Positions 9,583 to 56,090 of a stretch of DNA of 64,000 bases are shown here, piece by piece. Position 1 is the first letter of the stretch; each line of letters opens with the position of its first letter. The DNA lies in IMG/VR virus record IMGVR_UViG_3300029711_000004; one strand, given 5' to 3'. The notes beneath the pieces were generated by a model that saw only the letters and a program-made list of their open reading frames with translations, did no database searches and was not told where the DNA came from. Source of the stretch: a virus. Lineage: Duplodnaviria; Heunggongvirae; Uroviricota; Caudoviricetes. The translations under genes and the position numbers were made by a program.

Positions 9583-10216
9583 GGTCCACCTCATGCTTTT
9601 CAGCCACCAGCGGCAATAAAGCCCTGGCCATCTTATGAACCAATAGTGCATCAATAATGCCAAGCGTATGCCCCGGCTTAATGTTTAATGCCGCCTCAAG
9701 GCGACACCTTTCCAGGCCACTTTTCTCGGCTTGTTTATGATGATCTGGTGTAATAACGTCGCCCAAAACACGGCTAATTCTTTCTCGTAATTGCTGGGTG
9801 CCAGCACACTTGATCGCTGTATCGTGGAGACGGTTAACCAGTTCGCGATAAACATGCGGCTTAATTCGGATACGTTCACCGGTGACGCCCTTTCCTGGTG
9901 CTGGCACCGAACTATCCGGAATATCCGGATAGTTGCCAGCCTCGTAAGCTACCCGCAGCCAGTGCATGAATGTTTCAGTGGACACACAACCACAGTCCAC
10001 ATCGATTTTCCCGCGTTGCTGTTCCAGCCAATGCTCAAAATTCAATCTACACGTATTACTTTCATGTTGCTCTTTTTGTCTCAAGGCCAGCATCTGCTGG
10101 GCTATTTCCAATACTTCATCTGCCGTATATCCAGCACCGTGACCATACATTTCGATACGGGAAATAATCTCTGATATGCGCTCTTCAGTGATTCTGGTCA
10201 TTTCTTTTTGCGCCAT
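9566..10216 (-). CDS. Hypothetical protein (216 aa)
   Basis: ORF track; same-strand operon context. Confidence 0.55.
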   Translation of the reverse strand: MAQKEMTRITEERISEIISRIEMYGHGAGYTADEVLEIAQQMLALRQKEQHESNTCRLNFEHWLEQQRGKIDVDCGCVSTETFMHWLRVAYEAGNYPDIPDSSVPAPGKGVTGERIRIKPHVYRELVNRLHDTAIKCAGTQQLRERISRVLGDVITPDHHKQAEKSGLERCRLEAALNIKPGHTLGIIDALLVHKMARALLPLVAEKHEVDHANES

Positions 10217-10572
10217 TTCTTTTCACATTCCTTAGTCCATTCTTCAATGTTCATTTTGGCAATATCAGTCATTCCATCACCTAAGAAATACTTTTTCCGG
10301 TATGTCTTGCACTTAACCCACACTACAACAGCCACCAGCCAGAAAATAAAAGGCCATATAGCAATACCAACGACAGCCGCGATAAAGCCCAATAGCCATA
10401 AATGAAGCTCTCCAACTTCTGTTTGCGGCAATATTCTTAAAGAATTAAACAGCAGACTGAAGGAATGGTCGTATGCATTGGCGGTATAAGACATGCAATC
10501 CATATAATTAAAGTCATAGCCTGCGGCTGCCGCCCATAATGGGCGGTCAAGAAAATGTTTTAGTGTCATCAT
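10198..10572 (-). CDS. Small membrane protein (124 aa) with central hydrophobic helices and K-rich tail
   Basis: LHLWLLGFIAAVVGIAIWPFIFWLVAVVVWV hydrophobic segment; AT-rich locus. Confidence 0.6.
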   Translation of the reverse strand: MMTLKHFLDRPLWAAAAGYDFNYMDCMSYTANAYDHSFSLLFNSLRILPQTEVGELHLWLLGFIAAVVGIAIWPFIFWLVAVVVWVKCKTYRKKYFLGDGMTDIAKMNIEEWTKECEKKWRKKK

Positions 10573-10578
10573 ATAAAT

Positions 10579-10872
10579 TTAAGGTTCAGACCAGTTATCT
10601 TCAATAGCAATGCTTAATCTTTGTAGCCATTCTGCTAATTTCAGCATTGCTTCTCTTTCGCTTAAACCACGAGGAAAATCATCAAGCGAAATTGTTGGCT
10701 TGAAGCCCCCGTAATTATCCATTTCAACAGTCAGATTTTGCTCCAGCACGGTATTCCTTACGCGGCTATTGTGCCGAAGCAAATATACTGAACGTGATTT
10801 ATTGGTTTTATGGTCAAACTGATATTCGGTAAGTATCATCTGGCTTTTGCCATGACTATTACCTCTCCACAT
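10579..10872 (-). CDS. Hypothetical soluble protein (97 aa)
   Basis: Start ATG at 10872 preceded by GAGGT that overlaps the stop of the upstream peptide ORF. Confidence 0.6.
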   Translation of the reverse strand: MWRGNSHGKSQMILTEYQFDHKTNKSRSVYLLRHNSRVRNTVLEQNLTVEMDNYGGFKPTISLDDFPRGLSEREAMLKLAEWLQRLSIAIEDNWSEP

Positions 10873-10879
10873 ACTTACC

Positions 10880-11002
10880 TCACTTAATAAAACAACTCCA
10901 TGCGTAGTTGATGATTTTTTCCCACGTAATATAAATCTGCACTCCGGCAGTAAAACCAAAGCCAACAATTGCTGAAAAAATCAAAACATTTACTTTTGAC
11001 AT
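10880..11002 (-). CDS. 40-aa hydrophobic peptide MSKVNVLIFSAIVGFGFTAGVQIYITWEKIINYAWSCFIK
   Basis: Hand translation; GAGAGA RBS-like upstream; stop coupled to next gene's RBS; absent from ORF track. Confidence 0.5.
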   Translation of the reverse strand: MSKVNVLIFSAIVGFGFTAGVQIYITWEKIINYAWSCFIK

Positions 11003-11050
11003 TATAAATTTTCTCTCGGTGTCGTAGGTGATAGCACCATAATTGATAAT

Positions 11051-11284
11051 TTAGTGAGTTAGCAGTTCCATTTTTTGGATGATTTCCGCATGAGCATCAT
11101 CGTTATCAACACTTAACTCGTTTAATGCCTCTCGCACTACATCAACTTCTTCTGGTTGGAAGAAGTCATCTCGGTAGTCACCAAATAGAACCGAAACAAG
11201 CCTGCCACCAGCAACATCAAGATTGGCGCTAACAGGTGGCTCTTTGCCATCCTCAAATTCGACTACAAAAGTTATTTTTCCCAT
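11051..11284 (-). CDS. Small strongly acidic protein (about 77 aa)
   Basis: ORF track; start moved to MGKITF ATG; D/E-rich. Confidence 0.5.
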   Translation of the reverse strand: MGKITFVVEFEDGKEPPVSANLDVAGGRLVSVLFGDYRDDFFQPEEVDVVREALNELSVDNDDAHAEIIQKMELLTH

Positions 11285-11366
11285 CGTTACCACCAGCGAC
11301 AAATTGAATACAAACCCAGTGCTGCCGCCATCACAATTCCTACCGTTGCGAATGCTTCAGGCCAGC

Positions 11367-15781: not shown

Positions 15782-15798
15782 ATATTTATTAGAGCAAT
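15782..15798 (-). promoter_or_regulatory. C1 operator heading the leftward accessory operon
   Basis: AtATTTATTAGAGCAAT, 15/17. Confidence 0.65.
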
Positions 15799-17873: not shown

Positions 17874-17890
17874 ATTGCTCTAATAAAAAA
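17874..17890 (+). promoter_or_regulatory. C1 operator-like site
   Basis: ATTGCTCTAATAAaaaa, 14/17. Confidence 0.5.
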
Positions 17891-17912
17891 CGTGATGAGT
17901 GTACATCACGTT
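17891..17912. terminator. Hairpin between operators, probable bidirectional terminator
   Basis: cgtgatg-agtgtac-atcacg flanked by A/T runs. Confidence 0.5.
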
Positions 17913-17922
17913 TTAAAAATAT

Positions 17923-17939
17923 GGAATTATTAGAGCAAT
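17923..17939 (-). promoter_or_regulatory. C1 operator-like site
   Basis: ggAaTTATTAGAGCAAT, 14/17. Confidence 0.5.
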
Positions 17940-34658: not shown

Positions 34659-35007
34659 GTTGTAACCCTTGAATATCAACCACAGAAAGCTCGTCTTTGT
34701 AAAAAAAGGCCAGGTTGTGGCACCCCCTCGTTTGAGCGTATGAGCTGGGACCAATTTCGTTCTTCCAGACAAATGGCTTCAAATCCGTACGGCGAAGCAT
34801 AAAAACGCGATTTGTTCCGCTCTGATTCCCAATGAGGCAAAAGCCTTCTTTCACCTTGATAGCCTGCAAGTTGTCGAGTTCACCGCTGGTTACACGGCTA
34901 TCGAACTCTTTGCGGCTTATTAGCTCCATCTGCATCTGACGACTCCAAACAAATGCCCATTGAAGGGCGATGGCTGAATGGTACCGAAAATACGACATAA
35001 AAAACAA
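34651..35007 (-). CDS. Hypothetical protein upstream of hrdC (uhr position), 118 aa
   Basis: ORF track; operator upstream. Confidence 0.5.
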
Positions 35008-35023
35008 TATTTATTAGAGCAAT
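35007..35023 (-). promoter_or_regulatory. C1 operator upstream of uhr-hrdC-dmt
   Basis: AtATTTATTAGAGCAAT, 15/17. Confidence 0.65.
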
Positions 35024-49208: not shown

Positions 49209-49225
49209 AAATTTATTAGAGCAAA
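49209..49225 (-). promoter_or_regulatory. C1 operator (Op53-type) controlling kilA-repL
   Basis: AAATTTATTAGAGCAAa, 16/17. Confidence 0.75.
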
Positions 49226-50015: not shown

Positions 50016-51059
50016 TTAACCTATTGCTACTGGTTTTAACAAACCAGCATCAAGTAGCTTGCGAGTTAACCACTGCTGGCCTTTACCCGTTAATTGGGGC
50101 GTCAGCCGTATCTGGTAGCCATTTTCATCATCCAGCACCACTTCTTTCACCGTGAAATACCCGGCGTTAATGTACTGCTGGCGCGGTACGTTTTTGCGCG
50201 CACCAAAAGCCATGAGAATGCCGTTCTGGCGCAACCATGAGAAAAGGGCGTTTTGCTTAAGTCCAACGACCTTTGCAAAGTTCCCGATCAGGATTCCATT
50301 GGCCACTGATACCCGGTCGGCAAAATCGACTTTAGGGGCTGCGGCCACCAGCTGTTGTTCCAGCTGCATTTTCTGTTCTGCCAACTCGGCAGCCAGGCGT
50401 AGAGCTTCTGGTAATGTTTGGGGGATCGATGGGGCAGGGGAGTTTGCCTGCTGCAATTCTTCCAGTTTGTCGATCAGCGAACGGCGGACGGCTTTTGATT
50501 CGCGTGCGGCGACTCGCAGGGCTTGTTTGTAGGTCATGGTTATGACAACCATAGGCGTACCGCCACCTGGCGGCACGGTTGCACTTTTTGTGTAACCGTC
50601 CTCACCTTCTAATTCGTCGAGTATTTTTTCGATGAATTTGTTGTTCCGAACCTCTGGTTCCCCACATAACTTACGCGCTTCATTGACCATCTTTAACAGT
50701 GTCAGGCTGTCGATTGTGTCTCCGGTGTTGGGGATGATATTCACGGCTGGTGCTGGCGTAGCTGACGTAACAGGTGCTGTTTTTTCAACATTCAAATTAT
50801 TACCGGTCATTCTATGTGCCTCCTTTCTCATTTCTGCTGCCACTGTTGCGTAACGTAGACGTCCTTGTTCAATCAAATAATCCCTGATCTCGGCTATCAG
50901 TAGCTTGTTGATCACAGCCTTATCTGTTCGGGTATAAAAACGTCTGGTTATCATGAAATAGTTGGCAATTGCGCCGGGGATCTCCCGTGTCGGCATACAG
51001 GCAGTGTGCAGGGCGATCGCTTCGGCTATGTCATTACGGGTGACGAGAGGTTTTTTCAT
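50016..51059 (-). CDS. ant1: Antirepressor Ant (immI), 347 aa
   Basis: C-terminal domain paralogous to KilA C-terminus; coupled to icd. Confidence 0.8.
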   Translation of the reverse strand: MKKPLVTRNDIAEAIALHTACMPTREIPGAIANYFMITRRFYTRTDKAVINKLLIAEIRDYLIEQGRLRYATVAAEMRKEAHRMTGNNLNVEKTAPVTSATPAPAVNIIPNTGDTIDSLTLLKMVNEARKLCGEPEVRNNKFIEKILDELEGEDGYTKSATVPPGGGTPMVVITMTYKQALRVAARESKAVRRSLIDKLEELQQANSPAPSIPQTLPEALRLAAELAEQKMQLEQQLVAAAPKVDFADRVSVANGILIGNFAKVVGLKQNALFSWLRQNGILMAFGARKNVPRQQYINAGYFTVKEVVLDDENGYQIRLTPQLTGKGQQWLTRKLLDAGLLKPVAIG

Positions 51060-51277
51060 AAACCCCCCTGAACGTCGGCAGAGAAGGGGAGGCTCCAGTA
51101 ACTAAGTGAATTGCGCGAGTTAGTTGAAAAACGGGCAGTAAAAATGCAGGGGCCGTCAGGCAATTGAGAGCGTGCTTCGTCTTCTGTTGCTGCGATAACG
51201 AAGTGATAGTGGTGTTTTTTACAGGAATAGAAACGCCAGATGAATTCTTGGCGTGCGCAAGGATTGGCATTAACCAT
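51056..51277 (-). CDS. icd: Icd, cell-division inhibitor (73 aa), overlapping ant start
   Basis: 73-aa frame ending in ATGA overlap with ant ATG. Confidence 0.6.
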   Translation of the reverse strand: MVNANPCARQEFIWRFYSCKKHHYHFVIAATEDEARSQLPDGPCIFTARFSTNSRNSLSYWSLPFSADVQGGL

Positions 51278-51299
51278 AGTTACGGCCTCACAATCAGGT

Positions 51300-51570
51300 T
51301 TAACAACCTGCTACCCGCTGTCAAACAGGTGGCAGGACGTGACAGGGTTGACAGACTGGCGATTGTGAAACCAGCAGGCCGAAGCCTCCCCATCACGCCC
51401 CACCATAATTTGGGCGTAACGCGGTTTAACGGACACAAAAATACCGCAATATCGGAAATCTGCGGTTGTCCGCACAATCATTCAGGCTGTCAAACCTGGT
51501 CGCAGAATTTGCTACGACGGCGGAACTATAAGCCTGAACGATTAAAAGGTCAATATGATGCGAAAAGATA
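51300..51570 (-). ncRNA. c4: Region expected to encode the c4 antisense RNA; boundaries not determined
   Basis: Position between Op51 and icd; non-coding structured sequence. Confidence 0.35.
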
Positions 51571-51591
51571 GCATTCGTGACTTAAAAATAC

Positions 51592-51608
51592 AAATTTATT
51601 AGAGCATT
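51592..51608 (-). promoter_or_regulatory. C1 operator (Op51-type) at immI
   Basis: AAATTTATTAGAGCAtT, 16/17. Confidence 0.75.
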
Positions 51609-51704
51609 GTTTGTTTAATAAATGCACAATTGGATCTAATAACCTCTTTTTTTTAAAGGCGAAAATATGTACCCTAAATGAGTTATAAGGCAGGTGAGGT
51701 TATA

Positions 51705-52196
51705 ATGAGAAAACTATTACTACCGTTATTATTTATGGCTGGGACTGTTAATGCAGCATCAAGCGTAAAGGAGATTTGTACCGATTATACGAAATACCTT
51801 GGGCACGTTTACGGATTTGCTGTCAGTGAAGACGAATCCATGCGCAAGAAGTTACTGTCAGATATGAAGCGCCTTAAACTTTCTGAAGCGATGGTGCAGC
51901 AGGAACTGTATAAAGTCTCAACCAACGCAAATGCTAAATACCAATATTCTCGCCTATTAAACCCCGATGCAAATGAGATCAATCGAAGCACTTTCGATTA
52001 TATGGTAAAGGCATGCGAAACCGCTCCTGATTTTGCTATCCCTAGCTGGGGTGTGCTGGTGGCGAGCAATGCCGTTAATAAAGAAGATGTTGGAAGAAAT
52101 GGCATTGACTCAATCAGAAATGCCCCAGGAATGCGCCATCAAAACGTGCAGGGTACGCTTGAAGAACGAGCCAGGGGGCCGGGTGTAGCTCCATAA
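51705..52196 (+). CDS. Secreted protein (163 aa) whose C-terminal 30 aa match a Sit motif
   Basis: MRKLLLPLLFMAGTVNAASS signal peptide; GGTGAGG RBS; C-terminus GMRHQNVQGTLEERARGPG. Confidence 0.7.
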   Translation: MRKLLLPLLFMAGTVNAASSVKEICTDYTKYLGHVYGFAVSEDESMRKKLLSDMKRLKLSEAMVQQELYKVSTNANAKYQYSRLLNPDANEINRSTFDYMVKACETAPDFAIPSWGVLVASNAVNKEDVGRNGIDSIRNAPGMRHQNVQGTLEERARGPGVAP

Positions 52197-52284
52197 TTTA
52201 ATGAATAATATTAAATTCTCTGGGCATAGTGGATCTAACAATATGGACTATGCCTATAATATCTAAAACAAAAAGGATAAAAAT

Positions 52285-52791
52285 ATGAAATTATATAAGT
52301 CATTGTATAGCTTTTTATTAATGTCCTCTTTTCTGCCATTATCAGCAATGGCAGGTTCTACCGTTTGGACGGTAGGAGGTGAGCAAGGGTGGAGAGAAAT
52401 CTCTGCAACCAATGACGATGGTTATACAATTAACTTTTCTTGTGATGCTGGAGCAAGGGAAGGTTCAGAAGATCATATCGCTGGAAGAAATTTGTATGTA
52501 AGCGGAGGAAAAGAGAATGCCGATTTTTCTACACGCGACACAATATCACGTAAAGCAGATGTAATTACTTTAATTGTTGGCCCGGATAGTTTTAATATTG
52601 GCACGCAAAACACTGCTCCTAATCGTAGGGAATGGTATTCATTTTGGAAGGCAGTGTCATCTACAAATGAAAAAAACATAGATGTATATATCGGTTCGAG
52701 TCGAATCACATCATTCACTCTGGATGGTATTTCCAGTATTTATACAGAAGCTAAAAATGACGGGTGTTTAAAACAAGATGACGGTGAATAA
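52285..52791 (+). CDS. Secreted protein (168 aa)
   Basis: MKLYKSLYSFLLMSSFLPLSAMAGS signal peptide; AAGGA RBS; TATAAT upstream. Confidence 0.7.
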   Translation: MKLYKSLYSFLLMSSFLPLSAMAGSTVWTVGGEQGWREISATNDDGYTINFSCDAGAREGSEDHIAGRNLYVSGGKENADFSTRDTISRKADVITLIVGPDSFNIGTQNTAPNRREWYSFWKAVSSTNEKNIDVYIGSSRITSFTLDGISSIYTEAKNDGCLKQDDGE

Positions 52792-53851
52792 AGTGAAGGA
52801 TATTAAACACATTTCGCTTAACTCTAATAATAAAGCTGAAGGCACTGTCTTTTATGATTATTTAAATGAAATTAAAGGAGTGAGGCATAAAAAGATAAGT
52901 GGTTTATTAAATTCAGAATATATTTACAAGAGTTTAGTTAAACAGTTTGGAACAGTTAAAAAACAAGAATTAATTAATGATTGTTTTCGAAAAGAACTTG
53001 AGTCTTTACCAAAAGTTACGAGAATTGCACACCAGTTTCGTGAACAAATGGTATTTTTACAGAAACAGTATCAGGCGGCTTTTCCCAGTGATGCAAATGA
53101 GCATATTCAAATAATTAAAAATCAAGCTGAAATGGCTATGCCGTTACGAAAAAACTCAGAAGCCATTAATAAGATAGCTGGCTTAAATAATATGGAGGAG
53201 GTATTTAAAGAATTACACTCTAATATAAATTACAAAATTAAGATAAGCAAAGATATTAAAGAAATAATAAAGCAGTATAATAAAACAAGAAGTGTATTAT
53301 TAGAGCAAGTAGTAGAGCTTGGGCTTGTTACTATCGCGCAGGCTTATGCTAATGATTCTATAAAATCAGCGCATACCGAAAGTGAGCATCAAAACAAAGG
53401 ATTTAATAAATCTAGTTCGACGTTTTTTGATTCATTTAAGGCGCTTCCTTCTCCTATTCAGATCTTCCTTCTGTGGATTTTTTATCAAGTGGTGCTTGGC
53501 GCTATAACTGATTATGCAAAAGAAAAGACATTATCGCAAATTTACAAGATGGAATCATATCTTCTATCTCTAAATGAGGATAAGCCAATATCTAAGCAAA
53601 AGCTAACACAAGAAAATAAAGATATTCAGTGGGAGGATCTTAATAATTTTAGAGCTATAACAGGTGATAACGTAAGGTTGCATGTCGGCCCTTCTTTAAA
53701 TAGTGAAGTGATTGAATGCATTGGCAAAAACACAATTGTTGCTATTTTAGATAAGAAAGATCGTCAATGGCTTTACGTGCAGGTTAAATCAGGGGATGAG
53801 TTTATTACTGGTTGGATTACACGAACATACACAAAGCCTCTTAAGGCTTGA
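52778..53851 (+). CDS. Membrane-anchored protein (357 aa) with C-terminal SH3b-like domain
   Basis: K/N-rich; hydrophobic helix IQIFLLWIFYQVVLGAI; C-terminus NVRLHVGPSLNSEVIECIGKNTIVAILDKKDRQWLYVQVKSGDEFITGWI. Confidence 0.7.
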   Translation: MTVNKVKDIKHISLNSNNKAEGTVFYDYLNEIKGVRHKKISGLLNSEYIYKSLVKQFGTVKKQELINDCFRKELESLPKVTRIAHQFREQMVFLQKQYQAAFPSDANEHIQIIKNQAEMAMPLRKNSEAINKIAGLNNMEEVFKELHSNINYKIKISKDIKEIIKQYNKTRSVLLEQVVELGLVTIAQAYANDSIKSAHTESEHQNKGFNKSSSTFFDSFKALPSPIQIFLLWIFYQVVLGAITDYAKEKTLSQIYKMESYLLSLNEDKPISKQKLTQENKDIQWEDLNNFRAITGDNVRLHVGPSLNSEVIECIGKNTIVAILDKKDRQWLYVQVKSGDEFITGWITRTYTKPLKA

Positions 53852-53965
53852 ATTTTATCTCCGCATCTTCGGATTGGGTGTTGATGACGATGTGCTACTT
53901 GAAGCACTTGAGTTGTTTTAACGTAGTATCTGAAATGTGTAGACTGACCGGTAACAAATGACAAC

Positions 53966-54572
<607 letters not shown>

Positions 54573-54582
54573 GGGGGCTGAT

Positions 54583-55194
54583 ATGGGGCTTAATGTTGCT
54601 TCAGTAAAGTCTTATGTATCTTCGGCATTAACGACGACATTATTTGGCTCCGGCGTTGGTGAGCGGGAAGTTGGTAAGCTGACGTCAATCATCATGAACA
54701 AAATGCTGTTCGCGCAAGGATGGCAGTTCTCTGTCGAAGTTGATGGACTGGAGGGGGCAGATTTCTTTGCCAAAGATATTACCTACCACGATTACAGCAT
54801 CGAATATGAAACGATTAAAATCGGCGGAGGGAATATCCTTCAGCCAACGGAGCGTTCGCCTGGGCAGATAACGATGATGGTCAGGGATACCGTTGATGGC
54901 CTCGTTTTGGACTGGTTTAAGACGGCAAAAAGTCGGGTGATCAATCCGGACGGTACCGGGAATATACCGTCTAAATATTTGCTCAATGTGCGTATTTATC
55001 GGTTGCTGTCCTCCGGTTTAACCAAACTGGAAAATGAGATGACGGTATTCCCGGTCACTACCGGCGATGTCACCTATGCGCGAGATCAGGTTACTGAATT
55101 TAAGTCATTCCCAATGACCTTCGCATTGCACAGCACGTTTAACCAATCCTCAAGTTCTTTGGCTTCCCTTCTGGGCTTTAGCTTTTCTCTTTGA
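54583..55194 (+). CDS. Probable tail tube protein (203 aa)
   Basis: ORF track; position before the Sit tape-measure gene. Confidence 0.5.
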   Translation: MGLNVASVKSYVSSALTTTLFGSGVGEREVGKLTSIIMNKMLFAQGWQFSVEVDGLEGADFFAKDITYHDYSIEYETIKIGGGNILQPTERSPGQITMMVRDTVDGLVLDWFKTAKSRVINPDGTGNIPSKYLLNVRIYRLLSSGLTKLENEMTVFPVTTGDVTYARDQVTEFKSFPMTFALHSTFNQSSSSLASLLGFSFSL

Positions 55195-55208: not shown

Positions 55209-56090
55209 ATGCTTTTACCTCTTTTCCCGCTACCATCGCGGCCAACTGAATTGATCCAGTTCCGTCAGCCAAATATTGCTGATGCGATGCGTTTCAACTC
55301 GATAACACCGGAGGAACAAGAACAACAGACAACGGCGTATTTAAAAGCCTTGCTGGCTGAACCCGCGAAACATGATCCCCTGACATGGACGGCGCAGGAC
55401 CGGATTACCGCGTTATGGTGGATATTTACCGGCTCCCGTGAAACACCGGTCGAGACATTCACCTACACCTGTAAACATTGCGGTAAAGAGCATTATTACG
55501 ATTGCGATATGAATGCTCTGGCTGAAGATATCCAGGTCCTGGAAGTGGAACCGTTCATTGACGATATTGAGGTGTCTGTAGAGGGAGTGCCTTATCAATG
55601 GCGTATCGTGCCGCTTGATGGTTGGGCAATGGAAATGCTGGAGATGCGCCGTGCAGCATTGCCACCTGAAGACGACGCGGAATTCAAAGAAGCGATCGTT
55701 GATTTGCGTTTTTGGGAATTCGCTTATCAGTGTGAGCTTTATAACGATGTTAGTGGTACTCGTGAAGATCAGGCTGAGCGTCGTTATGAAACGATTAAAC
55801 GGATGGCCATTGATACTGAATTTATGAAGCTGGCGGCACACATCCGACTGGCTCATGAAAAGCTCGAACATGGTTTACCGTGCTACATCGATAAAGGTGA
55901 AATGCGTCTTCGTCTCCCGCCGCACAAATGCCCAAACCAGGATAAAAAGGAGTCCACAGAGGGTGCGTTTACCCGTCTGTGGGTGCCCTTTCGGGCTACC
56001 GACTTCATTCCACAGGTGGGGATTGAAAAGCTATCAGACCTTAGTATCCAACCTGGTTTTGTATGGGGGTATACCGATTCAGGACGCTGA
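55209..56090 (+). CDS. Tail assembly protein (293 aa)
   Basis: ORF track. Confidence 0.6.
   Translation: MLLPLFPLPSRPTELIQFRQPNIADAMRFNSITPEEQEQQTTAYLKALLAEPAKHDPLTWTAQDRITALWWIFTGSRETPVETFTYTCKHCGKEHYYDCDMNALAEDIQVLEVEPFIDDIEVSVEGVPYQWRIVPLDGWAMEMLEMRRAALPPEDDAEFKEAIVDLRFWEFAYQCELYNDVSGTREDQAERRYETIKRMAIDTEFMKLAAHIRLAHEKLEHGLPCYIDKGEMRLRLPPHKCPNQDKKESTEGAFTRLWVPFRATDFIPQVGIEKLSDLSIQPGFVWGYTDSGR

What the first reader, a model, noticed from the sequence alone, without database searches (positions are those of the whole stretch)
51705..53851. AT-rich three-gene envelope cassette at the sim-locus position
Between the immI operator (51592-51608) and the tail operon lies a cassette far more AT-rich than its flanks. 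It encodes two signal-peptide proteins (163 and 168 aa) and a 357-aa K/N-rich protein with one hydrophobic helix and a C-terminal SH3b-like domain. In P1 this position holds the sim superinfection-exclusion genes, which I recall as different in size; the composition suggests a foreign cassette swapped into that slot. All three products are predicted to act at the envelope, where entry exclusion works.
Basis: partly seen in the sequence, partly recalled or inferred. Interest (0 to 1): 0.8.

Follow-up and report, generated by a model that had tools for sequence, protein, structure and literature searches.

The report
Alternative envelope cassette in P1 sim slot
In a P1-like phage-plasmid, the place where phage P1 keeps its sim superinfection-exclusion genes holds three other envelope-protein genes; they are kept by selection and common in sequenced plasmids, but their function is untested.

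Summary
Three + strand genes (51705-52196, 52285-52791, 52778-53851) lie between the C1 operator Oc4 (51592-51608) and the late promoter before pmgC. This is the lowest-GC 2.1 kb of the window (36.2% against 47.4%).

The cassette is not wholly foreign. Gene 1 is the long form of simA: P1's 52-aa SimA matches its first 51 residues at 92%. The swapped-in unit is genes 2 and 3 (34% GC).
- Gene 2 is a periplasmic YfjT/YkfB-family protein.
- Gene 3 is a single-pass inner-membrane protein with a variable N-terminal region and a near-invariant C-terminal SH3_3 domain, inferred to be periplasmic.

None of the three is related to SimB or SimC, and none matches a known defence model. All three are under purifying selection.

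The slot is a published hypervariable region. I found at least five alternative cargos, and all 12 of their proteins are envelope-targeted. Relatives of gene 3 sit next to immI in D6-like elements, beside Dsr1 or SIR2 defence genes, and at the end of a P2-like prophage.

Envelope-level exclusion or defence is the best reading, but it rests on position and context only. This is a sequence-unrelated variant of a known kind, of moderate interest.

The parts
51592..51608 (-). C1 repressor operator Oc4 (Op51) of the immI operon. It is the left edge of the variable slot: P7-type elements diverge at 51606/51607.
   Evidence: One mismatch to ATTGCTCTAATAAATTT. Aligns with P1's annotated Oc4. P7 homology ends at 51606.
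51614..51640 (+). Promoter-like site equivalent to P1's predicted PsimA (-35 TTTAAT 51614-51619, -10 TCTAAT 51635-51640). It points into g1 and starts 6 nt beyond Oc4.
   Evidence: Position transferred from the P1 annotation through alignment A8. The hexamers are identical in P1 and the window. It is a prediction only; my consensus scan did not list it.
51705..52196 (+). g1: a 163-aa exported all-alpha protein of the 'simA domain protein' family (phrog_3933). It is the long form of P1 simA and lacks the roughly 50-aa C-terminal tail of the 205-246-aa relatives.
51705..51755 (+). g1 Sec signal peptide (MRKLLLPLLFMAGTVNA, cleavage after VNA).
   Evidence: Read from the sequence. No lipobox cysteine.
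51844..51845 (.). Breakpoint where P1 diverges, inside g1 at codon 47. Beyond it P1 carries the end of the simA remnant, then simB and simC.
   Evidence: blastn: P1 homology covers 51001-51844 and 53953-54600.
52184..52185 (.). Breakpoint where Ro157c2YLVW-type elements diverge, at g1 codon 161. It is the left end of the AT-rich g2-g3 unit.
   Evidence: blastn: Ro157 homology covers 51004-52184 and 53945-54600.
52223..52259 (+). 8-bp inverted repeat GGCATAGT/ACTATGCC (52223-52253) followed by TATAAT (52254-52259), in the 25%-GC spacer before g2. It may be a terminator or an internal promoter.
   Evidence: Sequence. Inverted repeat I3. Function not shown.
52285..52791 (+). g2: a 168-aa exported protein rich in beta strands, YfjT/YkfB family (PF27224; phrog_3429). 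The signal peptide is 52285-52353.
   Evidence: BLASTP against K-12 YfjT gives E 7e-6. It is 29% identical to Ro157 gp34. The 95%-identical cluster P0043 carries PF27224. RefSeq names the homolog 'YfjT/YkfB family phage-associated protein'. AF2 pLDDT is 69. dN/dS is 0.08.
52778..53851 (+). g3: a 357-aa single-pass membrane protein (phrog_7086). It overlaps the end of g2 by 14 nt. An alternative GTG start at 52793 follows a GGTGA motif.
   Evidence: dN/dS is 0.2-0.34.
53447..53515 (+). g3 transmembrane helix (residues about 224-246). In 29 of the 38 relatives checked it lies exactly 113 residues from the C-terminus (range 103-114).
   Evidence: Hydropathy of 38 family members.
53666..53830 (+). 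g3 SH3_3 (bacterial SH3) domain, residues 297-351, inferred to be periplasmic. It is the best-conserved part of the family (…GWITRTYTKPLKA).
   Evidence: Pfam 27.8 bits against a cut-off of 27. 19 of 19 members match. Invariant columns in A1. It also matches the C-terminal part of the phage amidase family phrog_1794, E 6e-5.
53834..53849 (+). Hairpin AAGCCTCTTAAGGCTT at the g3 stop codon. It is terminator-like, with a weak T tract.
53956..53974 (+). Late promoter LPsit of the pmgC-tub-pmgB-sit operon. It is the right edge of the slot: all five cargo types converge 3-12 nt upstream of it.
   Evidence: P1 annotation transferred through and alignment A9.

Best explanation
What it is (shown). The window is a P1-like phage-plasmid. 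The interval between the C1 operator of immI and the late promoter of the tail-tube operon is a cargo slot that different P1 relatives fill differently. This copy holds g1, g2 and g3.
- g1 is the long form of simA: an exported, disulfide-containing all-alpha protein.
- g2 and g3 form a 1.76-kb AT-rich pair whose reading frames overlap.
- g2 is an exported YfjT/YkfB-family protein.
- g3 is a single-pass inner-membrane protein.

How it most likely works (inferred).
- The genes are transcribed away from immI and lie outside the late operon, so like sim they would be made in the lysogen.
- g1 and g2 are released into the periplasm by the Sec pathway.
- g3 inserts with its long, lineage-variable N-terminal region in the cytoplasm. 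Its conserved linker and SH3 domain sit in the periplasm, where SH3 domains of this type bind peptidoglycan.
- Together or separately they alter the envelope so that an incoming phage genome is stopped after adsorption. This would be superinfection exclusion or defence by a route unrelated in sequence to SimC.

Confidence. About 0.9 that this is a selected, envelope-targeted cargo of the sim slot. About 0.45 that its role is anti-phage. Low for any specific molecular target.
For: Slot and edges:
- Position matches P1 simABC, and the edges fall at regulatory elements.
- The slot is a published hypervariable, low-GC region (PMC9603915).
- It has at least five cargo types.
- All 12 proteins of those five types carry a signal peptide, a lipobox or transmembrane helices (sequences).

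Link to exclusion:
- The only cargo with an annotated role is simC, labelled 'superimmunity' in the P1 record. That Sim blocks infection after adsorption is from my own knowledge of Kliem & Dreiseikelmann 1989 and Maillou & Dreiseikelmann 1990.
- The P7 cargo lipoprotein gives a sub-threshold match to TraT (23 bits, cut-off 31).

The genes are functional and widespread:
- dN/dS is 0.06-0.08 for g1, 0.08 for g2 and 0.2-0.34 for g3.
- Most of the cassette is present in 34 PLSDB plasmids and 31 complete E. coli genomes.
- The g2 cluster is indexed in 1802 blocks of the assembly collection.

g2 and g3 look like a pair: the combination recurs in a diverged form (29% and 62% identity) behind an unrelated first gene.

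Context of g3 relatives outside the slot:
- a lone opposite-strand gene among KilA-N, HTH and HNH genes in D6-like elements;
- next to Dsr1 (PADLOC E 1.3e-65) and a YagK/YfjJ gene in Kluyvera;
- next to an 864-aa SIR2 protein in the yciI-tonB region;
- at the end of a P2-like prophage, after ogr;
- between YfjJ-like genes, alpA and a likely integrase.

Topology: there is no N-terminal signal peptide, the N-terminal region is 185-360 hydrophilic residues, there is one transmembrane helix, and the C-terminal part has a constant length.
Against: - No experiment bears on function.
- None of the three proteins matches a PADLOC defence model, SimB or SimC, or any solved structure by sequence.
- In g3 the part inferred to be periplasmic is nearly invariant, while the cytoplasmic part varies. 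An exclusion protein that recognises phage proteins in the periplasm should show the opposite pattern.
- g3 occurs without g2. g1 and a YfjT-like gene occur without g3. So a three-part system is not required.
- Promoters and the terminator are consensus-level predictions.
- Flanking charges do not decide g3 topology: K+R is 1.8 on the N-terminal side and 2.3 on the C-terminal side.
- The defence-gene neighbourhoods are a few hand-picked cases, not a statistic.
Confidence: 0.45

Rival explanations
1. Lysogenic conversion for host fitness rather than anti-phage action. The exported proteins would change surface or envelope properties of the lysogen, such as serum or stress resistance, adhesion, or envelope integrity in the gut. 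This would resemble lambda Bor and Lom, or TraT acting as a complement-resistance factor.
Against: The fold matches are weak and the names are only annotations. The one annotated function in the slot is superimmunity. g3 relatives neighbour Dsr1 and SIR2 defence genes and prophage immunity regions. No virulence-type domain was found.
Confidence: 0.2
2. Not one system but separate single-gene cargos that happen to share a hotspot. g1, g2 and g3 would then have unrelated roles, and 'cassette' would be only a positional term.
For: The breakpoints are nested and mosaic (51606, 51844, 52184). g1 pairs with a different YfjT-like gene and no g3 in Ro157-type elements. g3 stands alone in D6-like elements and in chromosomal islands, and its downstream genes are unrelated from case to case. 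A hairpin plus TATAAT separates g1 from g2.
Against: g2 and g3 overlap by 14 nt. A diverged YfjT-like plus SH3 pair recurs in the same slot. A YfjT gene lies within 1.5 kb of a distant g3 relative in L014 and L015.
Confidence: 0.3
3. A helper for lysis or for cell-wall handling in the phage's own cycle. The membrane-tethered SH3 domain would bind peptidoglycan to assist or time lysis, or to prepare the wall for the Sit transglycosylase encoded by the neighbouring operon.
For: The SH3 region matches the C-terminal wall-binding part of a phage amidase family (phrog_1794, E 6e-5). A 2026 paper proposes standalone SH3 proteins as lysis-module helpers in T1-like phages (PMC13164509). [quoted passage not shown] The next operon encodes Sit with an SLT domain.
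Against: There is no catalytic domain. The genes lie upstream of the late promoter and away from the P1 lysis genes. The locus is dispensable and interchangeable among otherwise near-identical phages, and simABC are non-essential by CRISPRi (PMC10695390). g3 relatives also occur in non-phage islands.
Confidence: 0.1
4. Decaying or non-functional leftovers of past recombination.
For: g1 here lacks the C-terminal tail of its longer relatives, and in P1 it is cut down to 52 aa.
Against: All three reading frames are intact and under purifying selection (dN/dS 0.06-0.34). They are conserved across dozens of plasmids from several species.
Confidence: 0.03

Closest known systems
Phage P1 simABC (superimmunity / superinfection exclusion locus)
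   Same: Same interval, same strand and the same flanking regulatory elements (Oc4 on the left, LPsit on the right). The P1 genes are also low in GC (31-38%). SimB and SimC also have signal peptides. simA is homologous to the 5' end of g1.
   Different: SimB and SimC share no detectable sequence or profile similarity with g1, g2 or g3. Sizes differ (52/111/264 aa against 163/168/357 aa). Sim has no membrane-anchored SH3 protein. A function is annotated only for Sim.
E. coli K-12 YfjT (CP4-57) and YkfB (CP4-6), Pfam PF27224
   Same: g2 is a distant homolog: E 7e-6, about 26% identity, similar length, a signal peptide and shared conserved W/G/C/F/D-Y positions.
   Different: The K-12 genes follow an inner-membrane lipoprotein gene (yfjS, yafY) in integrative cryptic prophages, not an SH3 gene in a phage-plasmid. 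The family has no known function.
Phage P7 upf50.5 and upf50.0, and Ro157c2YLVW gp35 and gp34 (other cargos of the same slot)
   Same: Same slot, all envelope-targeted. Ro157 gp35 is the 215-aa form of g1, and gp34 is a YfjT-family protein.
   Different: P7 carries a lipoprotein with a sub-threshold TraT match plus a DUF5384 protein, both unrelated to g1-g3. Ro157-type elements lack the SH3 gene.
Envelope-level exclusion proteins of other phages (T4 Imm and Sp, P22 SieA, HK97 gp15, T5 Llp and T1 Cor)
   Same: They are small phage-encoded inner-membrane, periplasmic or lipoprotein factors that act on the envelope to stop incoming phages (PMC11436027, PMC10883804). The predicted locations of g1-g3 are the same.
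   Different: No homology was tested or found beyond the absence of PADLOC, Pfam and NCBIfam hits. None of those proteins is described there with an SH3 domain. There is no lipobox here, so a receptor-masking lipoprotein mechanism like Llp or Cor is not indicated.
Single-pass peptidoglycan-binding proteins such as FtsN and DamX (SPOR domain), and the standalone SH3 (DUF7244) of T1-like lysis modules
   Same: The architecture is analogous: cytoplasmic N-terminus, one transmembrane helix, a periplasmic linker, then a C-terminal wall-binding-type domain (FtsN and DamX from my own knowledge). T1-like phages carry a separate SH3 protein of proposed wall-binding function (PMC13164509).
   Different: The binding domain differs from SPOR (it is SH3_3). 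The Pfam family and gene position differ from the T1 protein. g3 adds a long repetitive N-terminal region.

Membership tests
P1 Sim superinfection-exclusion locus (SimC as the active protein) | Sequence homology to SimC or SimB | tested here: not met
   BLASTP finds nothing with E below 0.4. hhalign of the g1, g2 and g3 family profiles against SimC, and of the g2 family profile against SimB, gives probabilities of at most about 1%. The BFVD fold search with g2 returned no Sim protein.
P1 Sim superinfection-exclusion locus (SimC as the active protein) | Position between Oc4/c4 and pmgC, transcribed away from immI | tested here: met
P1 Sim superinfection-exclusion locus (SimC as the active protein) | Blocks infection after adsorption when expressed alone | not testable with these tools
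   Needs plating, adsorption and DNA-entry assays.
SimA / 'simA domain protein' family (phrog_3933) | Homology to P1 SimA and to the long family members | tested here: met
   g1 against SimA: 92% over 51 aa. g1 against Ro157 gp35: 96% over 161 aa. phrog_3933 E 2e-113. 23 homologs aligned.
YfjT/YkfB family (PF27224) | Significant similarity over the full length to YfjT or YkfB, with an N-terminal signal peptide | tested here: met
   g2 against K-12 YfjT: E 7e-6 over 152 columns. The 95%-identical cluster P0043 carries PF27224. The local Pfam copy lacks this model, so I did not run a direct HMM score.
Bacterial SH3 domain, SH3_3 (PF08239) | Score at or above the Pfam gathering cut-off | tested here: met
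   27.8 bits against 27, which is marginal for g3 alone. However, 19 of 19 family members match, best E 1.9e-11.
Moron (independent accessory transcription unit in a phage genome) | Inserted between genes that are adjacent in relatives, with deviant composition | tested here: met
   The flanks are collinear in P1, P7, Ro157 and L008 types with different inserts. GC is 34% against 47%.
Moron (independent accessory transcription unit in a phage genome) | Own promoter and terminator | tested here: inconclusive
   Only consensus-level sites were found: the PsimA-equivalent hexamers, TATAAT at 52254 and a hairpin at 53834-53849. Promoter-like sites are no more frequent than in shuffled sequence (6 against 8.7).
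PTP-like phytase (PF14566), for g1 | Score above the cut-off, and the catalytic Cys-X5-Arg loop (the motif is from my own knowledge) | tested here: not met
   25.2 bits against a cut-off of 27, covering only profile positions 47-132. Neither cysteine of g1 is followed by Arg at +6 (sequence).
Known anti-phage defence systems (PADLOC-DB 2.0) | Match to any system component | tested here: not met
   No hit for g1, g2 or g3 at E up to 1, nor for two distant g3 relatives.
Receptor-masking exclusion lipoproteins (Llp, Cor, TraT type) | Lipobox with a cysteine at +1 of the mature protein | tested here: not met
   The signal peptides end VNA|A and AMA|G. Neither has a cysteine.

The most novel reading that the evidence does not exclude
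g3 would found an uncharacterised family of mobile-element-borne anti-phage proteins: about 386 clusters at 50% identity with E up to 1e-3. Each member is a single-pass inner-membrane protein. A near-invariant periplasmic SH3 domain would bind or monitor peptidoglycan. A fast-evolving cytoplasmic region built of tandem 13-17-residue repeats would be the output or specificity part. The protein might, for example, sense wall breaching by an incoming tail and then block or abort the infection. The P1 sim slot would then be a dedicated hotspot for envelope-level exclusion genes, comparable to the defence hotspots of P2 and P4.
Probability: 0.25. Interest if true: 0.7.

Novelty: new variant of a known kind. 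Interest (0 to 1): 0.45.

Why it matters
P1-like phage-plasmids are common in Escherichia and Salmonella and carry resistance genes, so what controls superinfection among them affects how they spread. The sim slot has been treated as 'variable, function unknown'. This analysis adds four points:
- Every cargo type examined encodes only envelope proteins.
- P1's simA is a remnant of a longer gene.
- One frequent cargo pairs a YfjT-family protein with a membrane-anchored SH3 protein.
- Relatives of that SH3 protein sit beside Dsr1 and SIR2 defence genes and at prophage ends.

This yields a short list of three small genes that simple plating assays could test. It could also give a first function to the YfjT/YkfB family of E. 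coli K-12.

Tried and rejected
- PADLOC, NCBIfam and Pfam on g1-g3: only SH3_3 passed a cut-off.
- PTP-like phytase for g1: rejected. The score is below the cut-off, the match is partial, and there is no Cys-X5-Arg loop.
- Sequence search of the PDB with the three family profiles: nothing credible.
- Foldseek of g2 against BFVD: one significant hit, no Sim protein.
- hhalign of the g1, g2 and g3 family profiles against SimC, and of the g2 profile against SimB: no relation.
- tblastn of g3 against 50,697 deposited phage genomes: no match. The cassette is seen only in plasmid, assembly and IMG/VR records.
- The search for related loci with the widest g3 alignment failed for lack of a conserved stretch. 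A narrower alignment gave 4 genome loci and 25 viral loci.
- The positive-inside rule for g3 topology was uninformative. The topology rests on the absence of a signal peptide and the size of the N-terminal region.
- A conserved partner gene downstream of distant g3 relatives: none found.
- Flanking direct or inverted repeats that would indicate site-specific insertion: only short matches of chance size.
- Lobocka 2004 and Gilcrease & Casjens 2018 are not held in the library. Statements about Sim's mechanism come from my own knowledge.
Full report
**Setting.** The window is a P1-like phage-plasmid. On the - strand lie ant1 (50016-51059) and icd (51056-51277), and the c4 RNA region follows from alignment to P1. 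On the + strand downstream lie pmgC (54006-54572), tub (54583-55194) and pmgB (55209-56090). The sequence AATGCTCTAATAAATTT at 51592-51608 (- strand) is one mismatch from the C1 operator consensus. The window holds 14 such sites against 0.42 expected by chance. This one aligns with P1's annotated Oc4.

**The observation.**
- The three ORFs are at the stated coordinates.
- The interval 51705-53851 is 36.2% GC. The mean over all windows of that length is 47.4% (sd 2.6). Only 0.47% of positions are as low, all overlapping this region.
- The drop is graded: g1 44.7%, the g1-g2 spacer 25%, g2 38.1%, g3 32.4%.
- g1 and g2 begin with canonical Sec signal peptides ending VNA|A and AMA|G, without a lipobox.
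- g3 is rich in K and N and has one hydrophobic helix. It has a C-terminal SH3_3 domain at 27.8 bits against a cut-off of 27. That marginal score is backed by 19 of 19 relatives matching SH3_3, best E 1.9e-11.

**Comparison with relatives.** blastn against P1, P7 and phage vB_EcoM-Ro157c2YLVW gives nested left breakpoints and one common right edge.

| Relative | Left homology ends at | Where that is |
|---|---|---|
| P7 | 51606 | the end of Oc4 |
| P1 | 51844 | inside g1, codon 47 |
| Ro157c2YLVW | 52184 | g1 codon 161 |

- All resume at 53945-53953, a few bases before the late promoter LPsit.
- P1's 52-aa SimA is 92% identical to the first 51 residues of the g1 reading frame. Ro157 gp35 (215 aa) is 96% identical over 161 residues and then continues.
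- So g1 is the long form of simA, and P1's simA is a 5' remnant.
- The unit that differs from every compared relative is 52185-53944 (g2 and g3; 34.1% GC).
- P1's own simB and simC are just as AT-rich (31.5% and 33.6%). Low GC is therefore a property of the slot's cargo in general.
- This matches the published description of simABC as one of eight low-GC hypervariable regions of P1-like phage-plasmids (PMC9603915).

**Slot census.** An evenly spaced sample of the 621 PLSDB plasmids that match the flanks shows five cargo types:
- this cassette, at 80% coverage or more in 34 records, with 357-aa and 389/394-aa forms of g3;
- a Ro157-type pair (long g1 plus a YfjT-like gene);
- a type with a 116-aa multi-pass membrane protein, a YfjT-like gene and a 344-aa SH3 protein;
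- P1 simABC;
- the P7 type (a lipoprotein plus a DUF5384 protein).

By inspection of the sequences, all 12 proteins of these five types carry a signal peptide, a lipobox or transmembrane helices. Among 5,426 complete E. coli genomes, 31 hold most of this cassette, almost always on plasmids. The g2 protein cluster is indexed in 1802 blocks of the assembly collection, and every context read was this same slot. tblastn of g3 found no match in any deposited phage record.

**The proteins.**
- g3 (phrog_7086) has 42 close clusters, all in Enterobacteriaceae. A profile search of 1.84 billion representatives found 386 relatives at E up to 1e-3.
- Across these relatives the N-terminal region (185-360 residues) varies in length and sequence. 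It is often built of tandem 13-17-residue repeats that differ between lineages.
- The single transmembrane helix lies 103-114 residues from the C-terminus, exactly 113 in 29 of the 38 relatives checked. The linker and SH3 domain are close to invariant among the near relatives.
- With no signal peptide and a long hydrophilic N-terminal region, the N-terminus should be cytoplasmic and the SH3 domain periplasmic. This is an inference: the flanking charges do not decide it.

**Are the genes functional, and do they form a unit?**
- Pairwise dN/dS is 0.06-0.08 for g1, 0.08 for g2 and 0.2-0.34 for g3. All three are under purifying selection.
- g2 and g3 overlap by 14 nt. A diverged YfjT-like plus SH3 pair (29% and 62% identity) recurs in the same slot behind an unrelated first gene. 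That argues for a g2-g3 pair.
- Against an obligate system, D6-like elements of Salmonella and Citrobacter carry the SH3 gene alone. There it is a lone + strand gene between - strand operons, among KilA-N, HTH and HNH genes. Ro157-type elements carry g1 and a YfjT-like gene without it.
- Distant g3 relatives have unrelated downstream genes.

**Context bearing on function.** Outside the P1 and D6 groups, g3 relatives were found in these places:
- next to Dsr1 (PADLOC E 1.3e-65) and a YagK/YfjJ gene in a Kluyvera chromosome;
- next to an 864-aa SIR2 protein in the yciI-tonB region of another genome;
- at that same chromosomal locus, at the end of a P2-like prophage just after ogr;
- between YfjJ-like genes, alpA and a likely integrase.

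These are accessory or defence-type neighbourhoods, but they are a handful of cases, not a statistic. None of the three proteins matches a PADLOC model, SimB or SimC.

**Expression signals.**
- The hexamers that P1's annotation calls PsimA (TTTAAT and TCTAAT) are conserved at 51614-51619 and 51635-51640, starting 6 nt beyond Oc4.
- An 8-bp inverted repeat followed by TATAAT precedes g2.
- A hairpin sits on the g3 stop codon.
- All are predictions. The layout places the genes outside the late operon and divergent from immI, as for sim.

**Interpretation.**
- The most economical reading is a selected, prophage-expressed set of envelope proteins in a slot whose one annotated cargo is superimmunity.
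- That Sim blocks P1 after adsorption, and that SimC is a processed exported protein, I take from my own knowledge of Kliem & Dreiseikelmann 1989 and Maillou & Dreiseikelmann 1990.
- I put about 0.45 on an anti-phage or exclusion role.
- One feature sits badly with simple recognition of incoming phage parts in the periplasm: in g3 the periplasmic part is conserved and the cytoplasmic part varies.
- That pattern fits better a conserved host ligand outside, such as peptidoglycan, and a variable function inside.
- The rivals are host-fitness conversion, independent cargos, and a lysis or wall-handling helper. A standalone SH3 protein has been proposed for the last role in T1-like phages (PMC13164509).
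- Decay is disfavoured by the selection data.

**Verdict.** The cargo is a sequence-unrelated variant in a known hypervariable locus. It is already present, unannotated, in many database records. Its function is open and can be tested directly.

Noticed in passing
window 51678-51836, compared with P1 simA (L001 2778-2936): P1's annotated 52-aa SimA is the 5' remnant of a 163-246-aa exported protein family that is intact in other P1-like elements. P1 diverges inside the gene at codon 47.
   Followed up: yes
whole window; for example 1398-1497, 15782-15798, 17874-17939, 31474-31501, 35007-35023, 49209-49225, 51592-51608: There are 14 matches to the C1 operator consensus (up to 3 mismatches) against 0.42 expected. 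They include an overlapping inverted pair at 31474-31501 and a site at 49209-49225, upstream of the ant1 gene.
   Followed up: partly
window about 9998-11342: This is the only other low-GC island in the window (minimum 38.7% in 1-kb windows). It holds small genes shared with other P1-like phages and with Stx-converting lambdoid phages (Eaa, DUF551 and ASCH-domain annotations). It is probably another variable cargo region.
   Followed up: partly
L019 5245-10356; L025 2005-8170; L026 7001-8798; L023 4420-9400: Distant relatives of g3 lie beside Dsr1, beside an 864-aa SIR2 protein, at the end of a P2-like prophage after ogr, and within an AlpA/YfjJ-type island.
   Followed up: partly
proteins P0164, P0168, P0184, P0189, P0196, P0201 and the Citrobacter/Salmonella members of alignment A1: The N-terminal regions of g3 relatives are tandem arrays of degenerate 13-17-residue repeats. 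The repeat sequence differs completely between lineages, for example FGGxLEGIxKQAx, SIGSLHKQLSQMN and ESEAMRSIRELxESS.
   Followed up: no
L003 2991-3512 (P7 upf50.5): The P7 lipoprotein in this slot gives a sub-threshold match to TraT, the surface-exclusion and complement-resistance lipoprotein (E 7e-5, 23 bits against a cut-off of 31). RefSeq names it 'DNA methyltransferase', which its signal peptide and lipobox make unlikely.
   Followed up: no
alignment A4 (P0051, P0052, P0055, P0056, P0064): Several database 'homologs' of g1 switch into an unrelated C-terminal sequence at different points. This looks like frameshifts in short-read assemblies rather than real variants.
   Followed up: no
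L008 6303-6549 compared with window 51001-51247: In the elements with the 116-aa / YfjT-like / 344-aa cargo, homology to the window stops inside icd. Their c4-operator region differs too, so slot cargo and immI type may be exchanged together.
   Followed up: no
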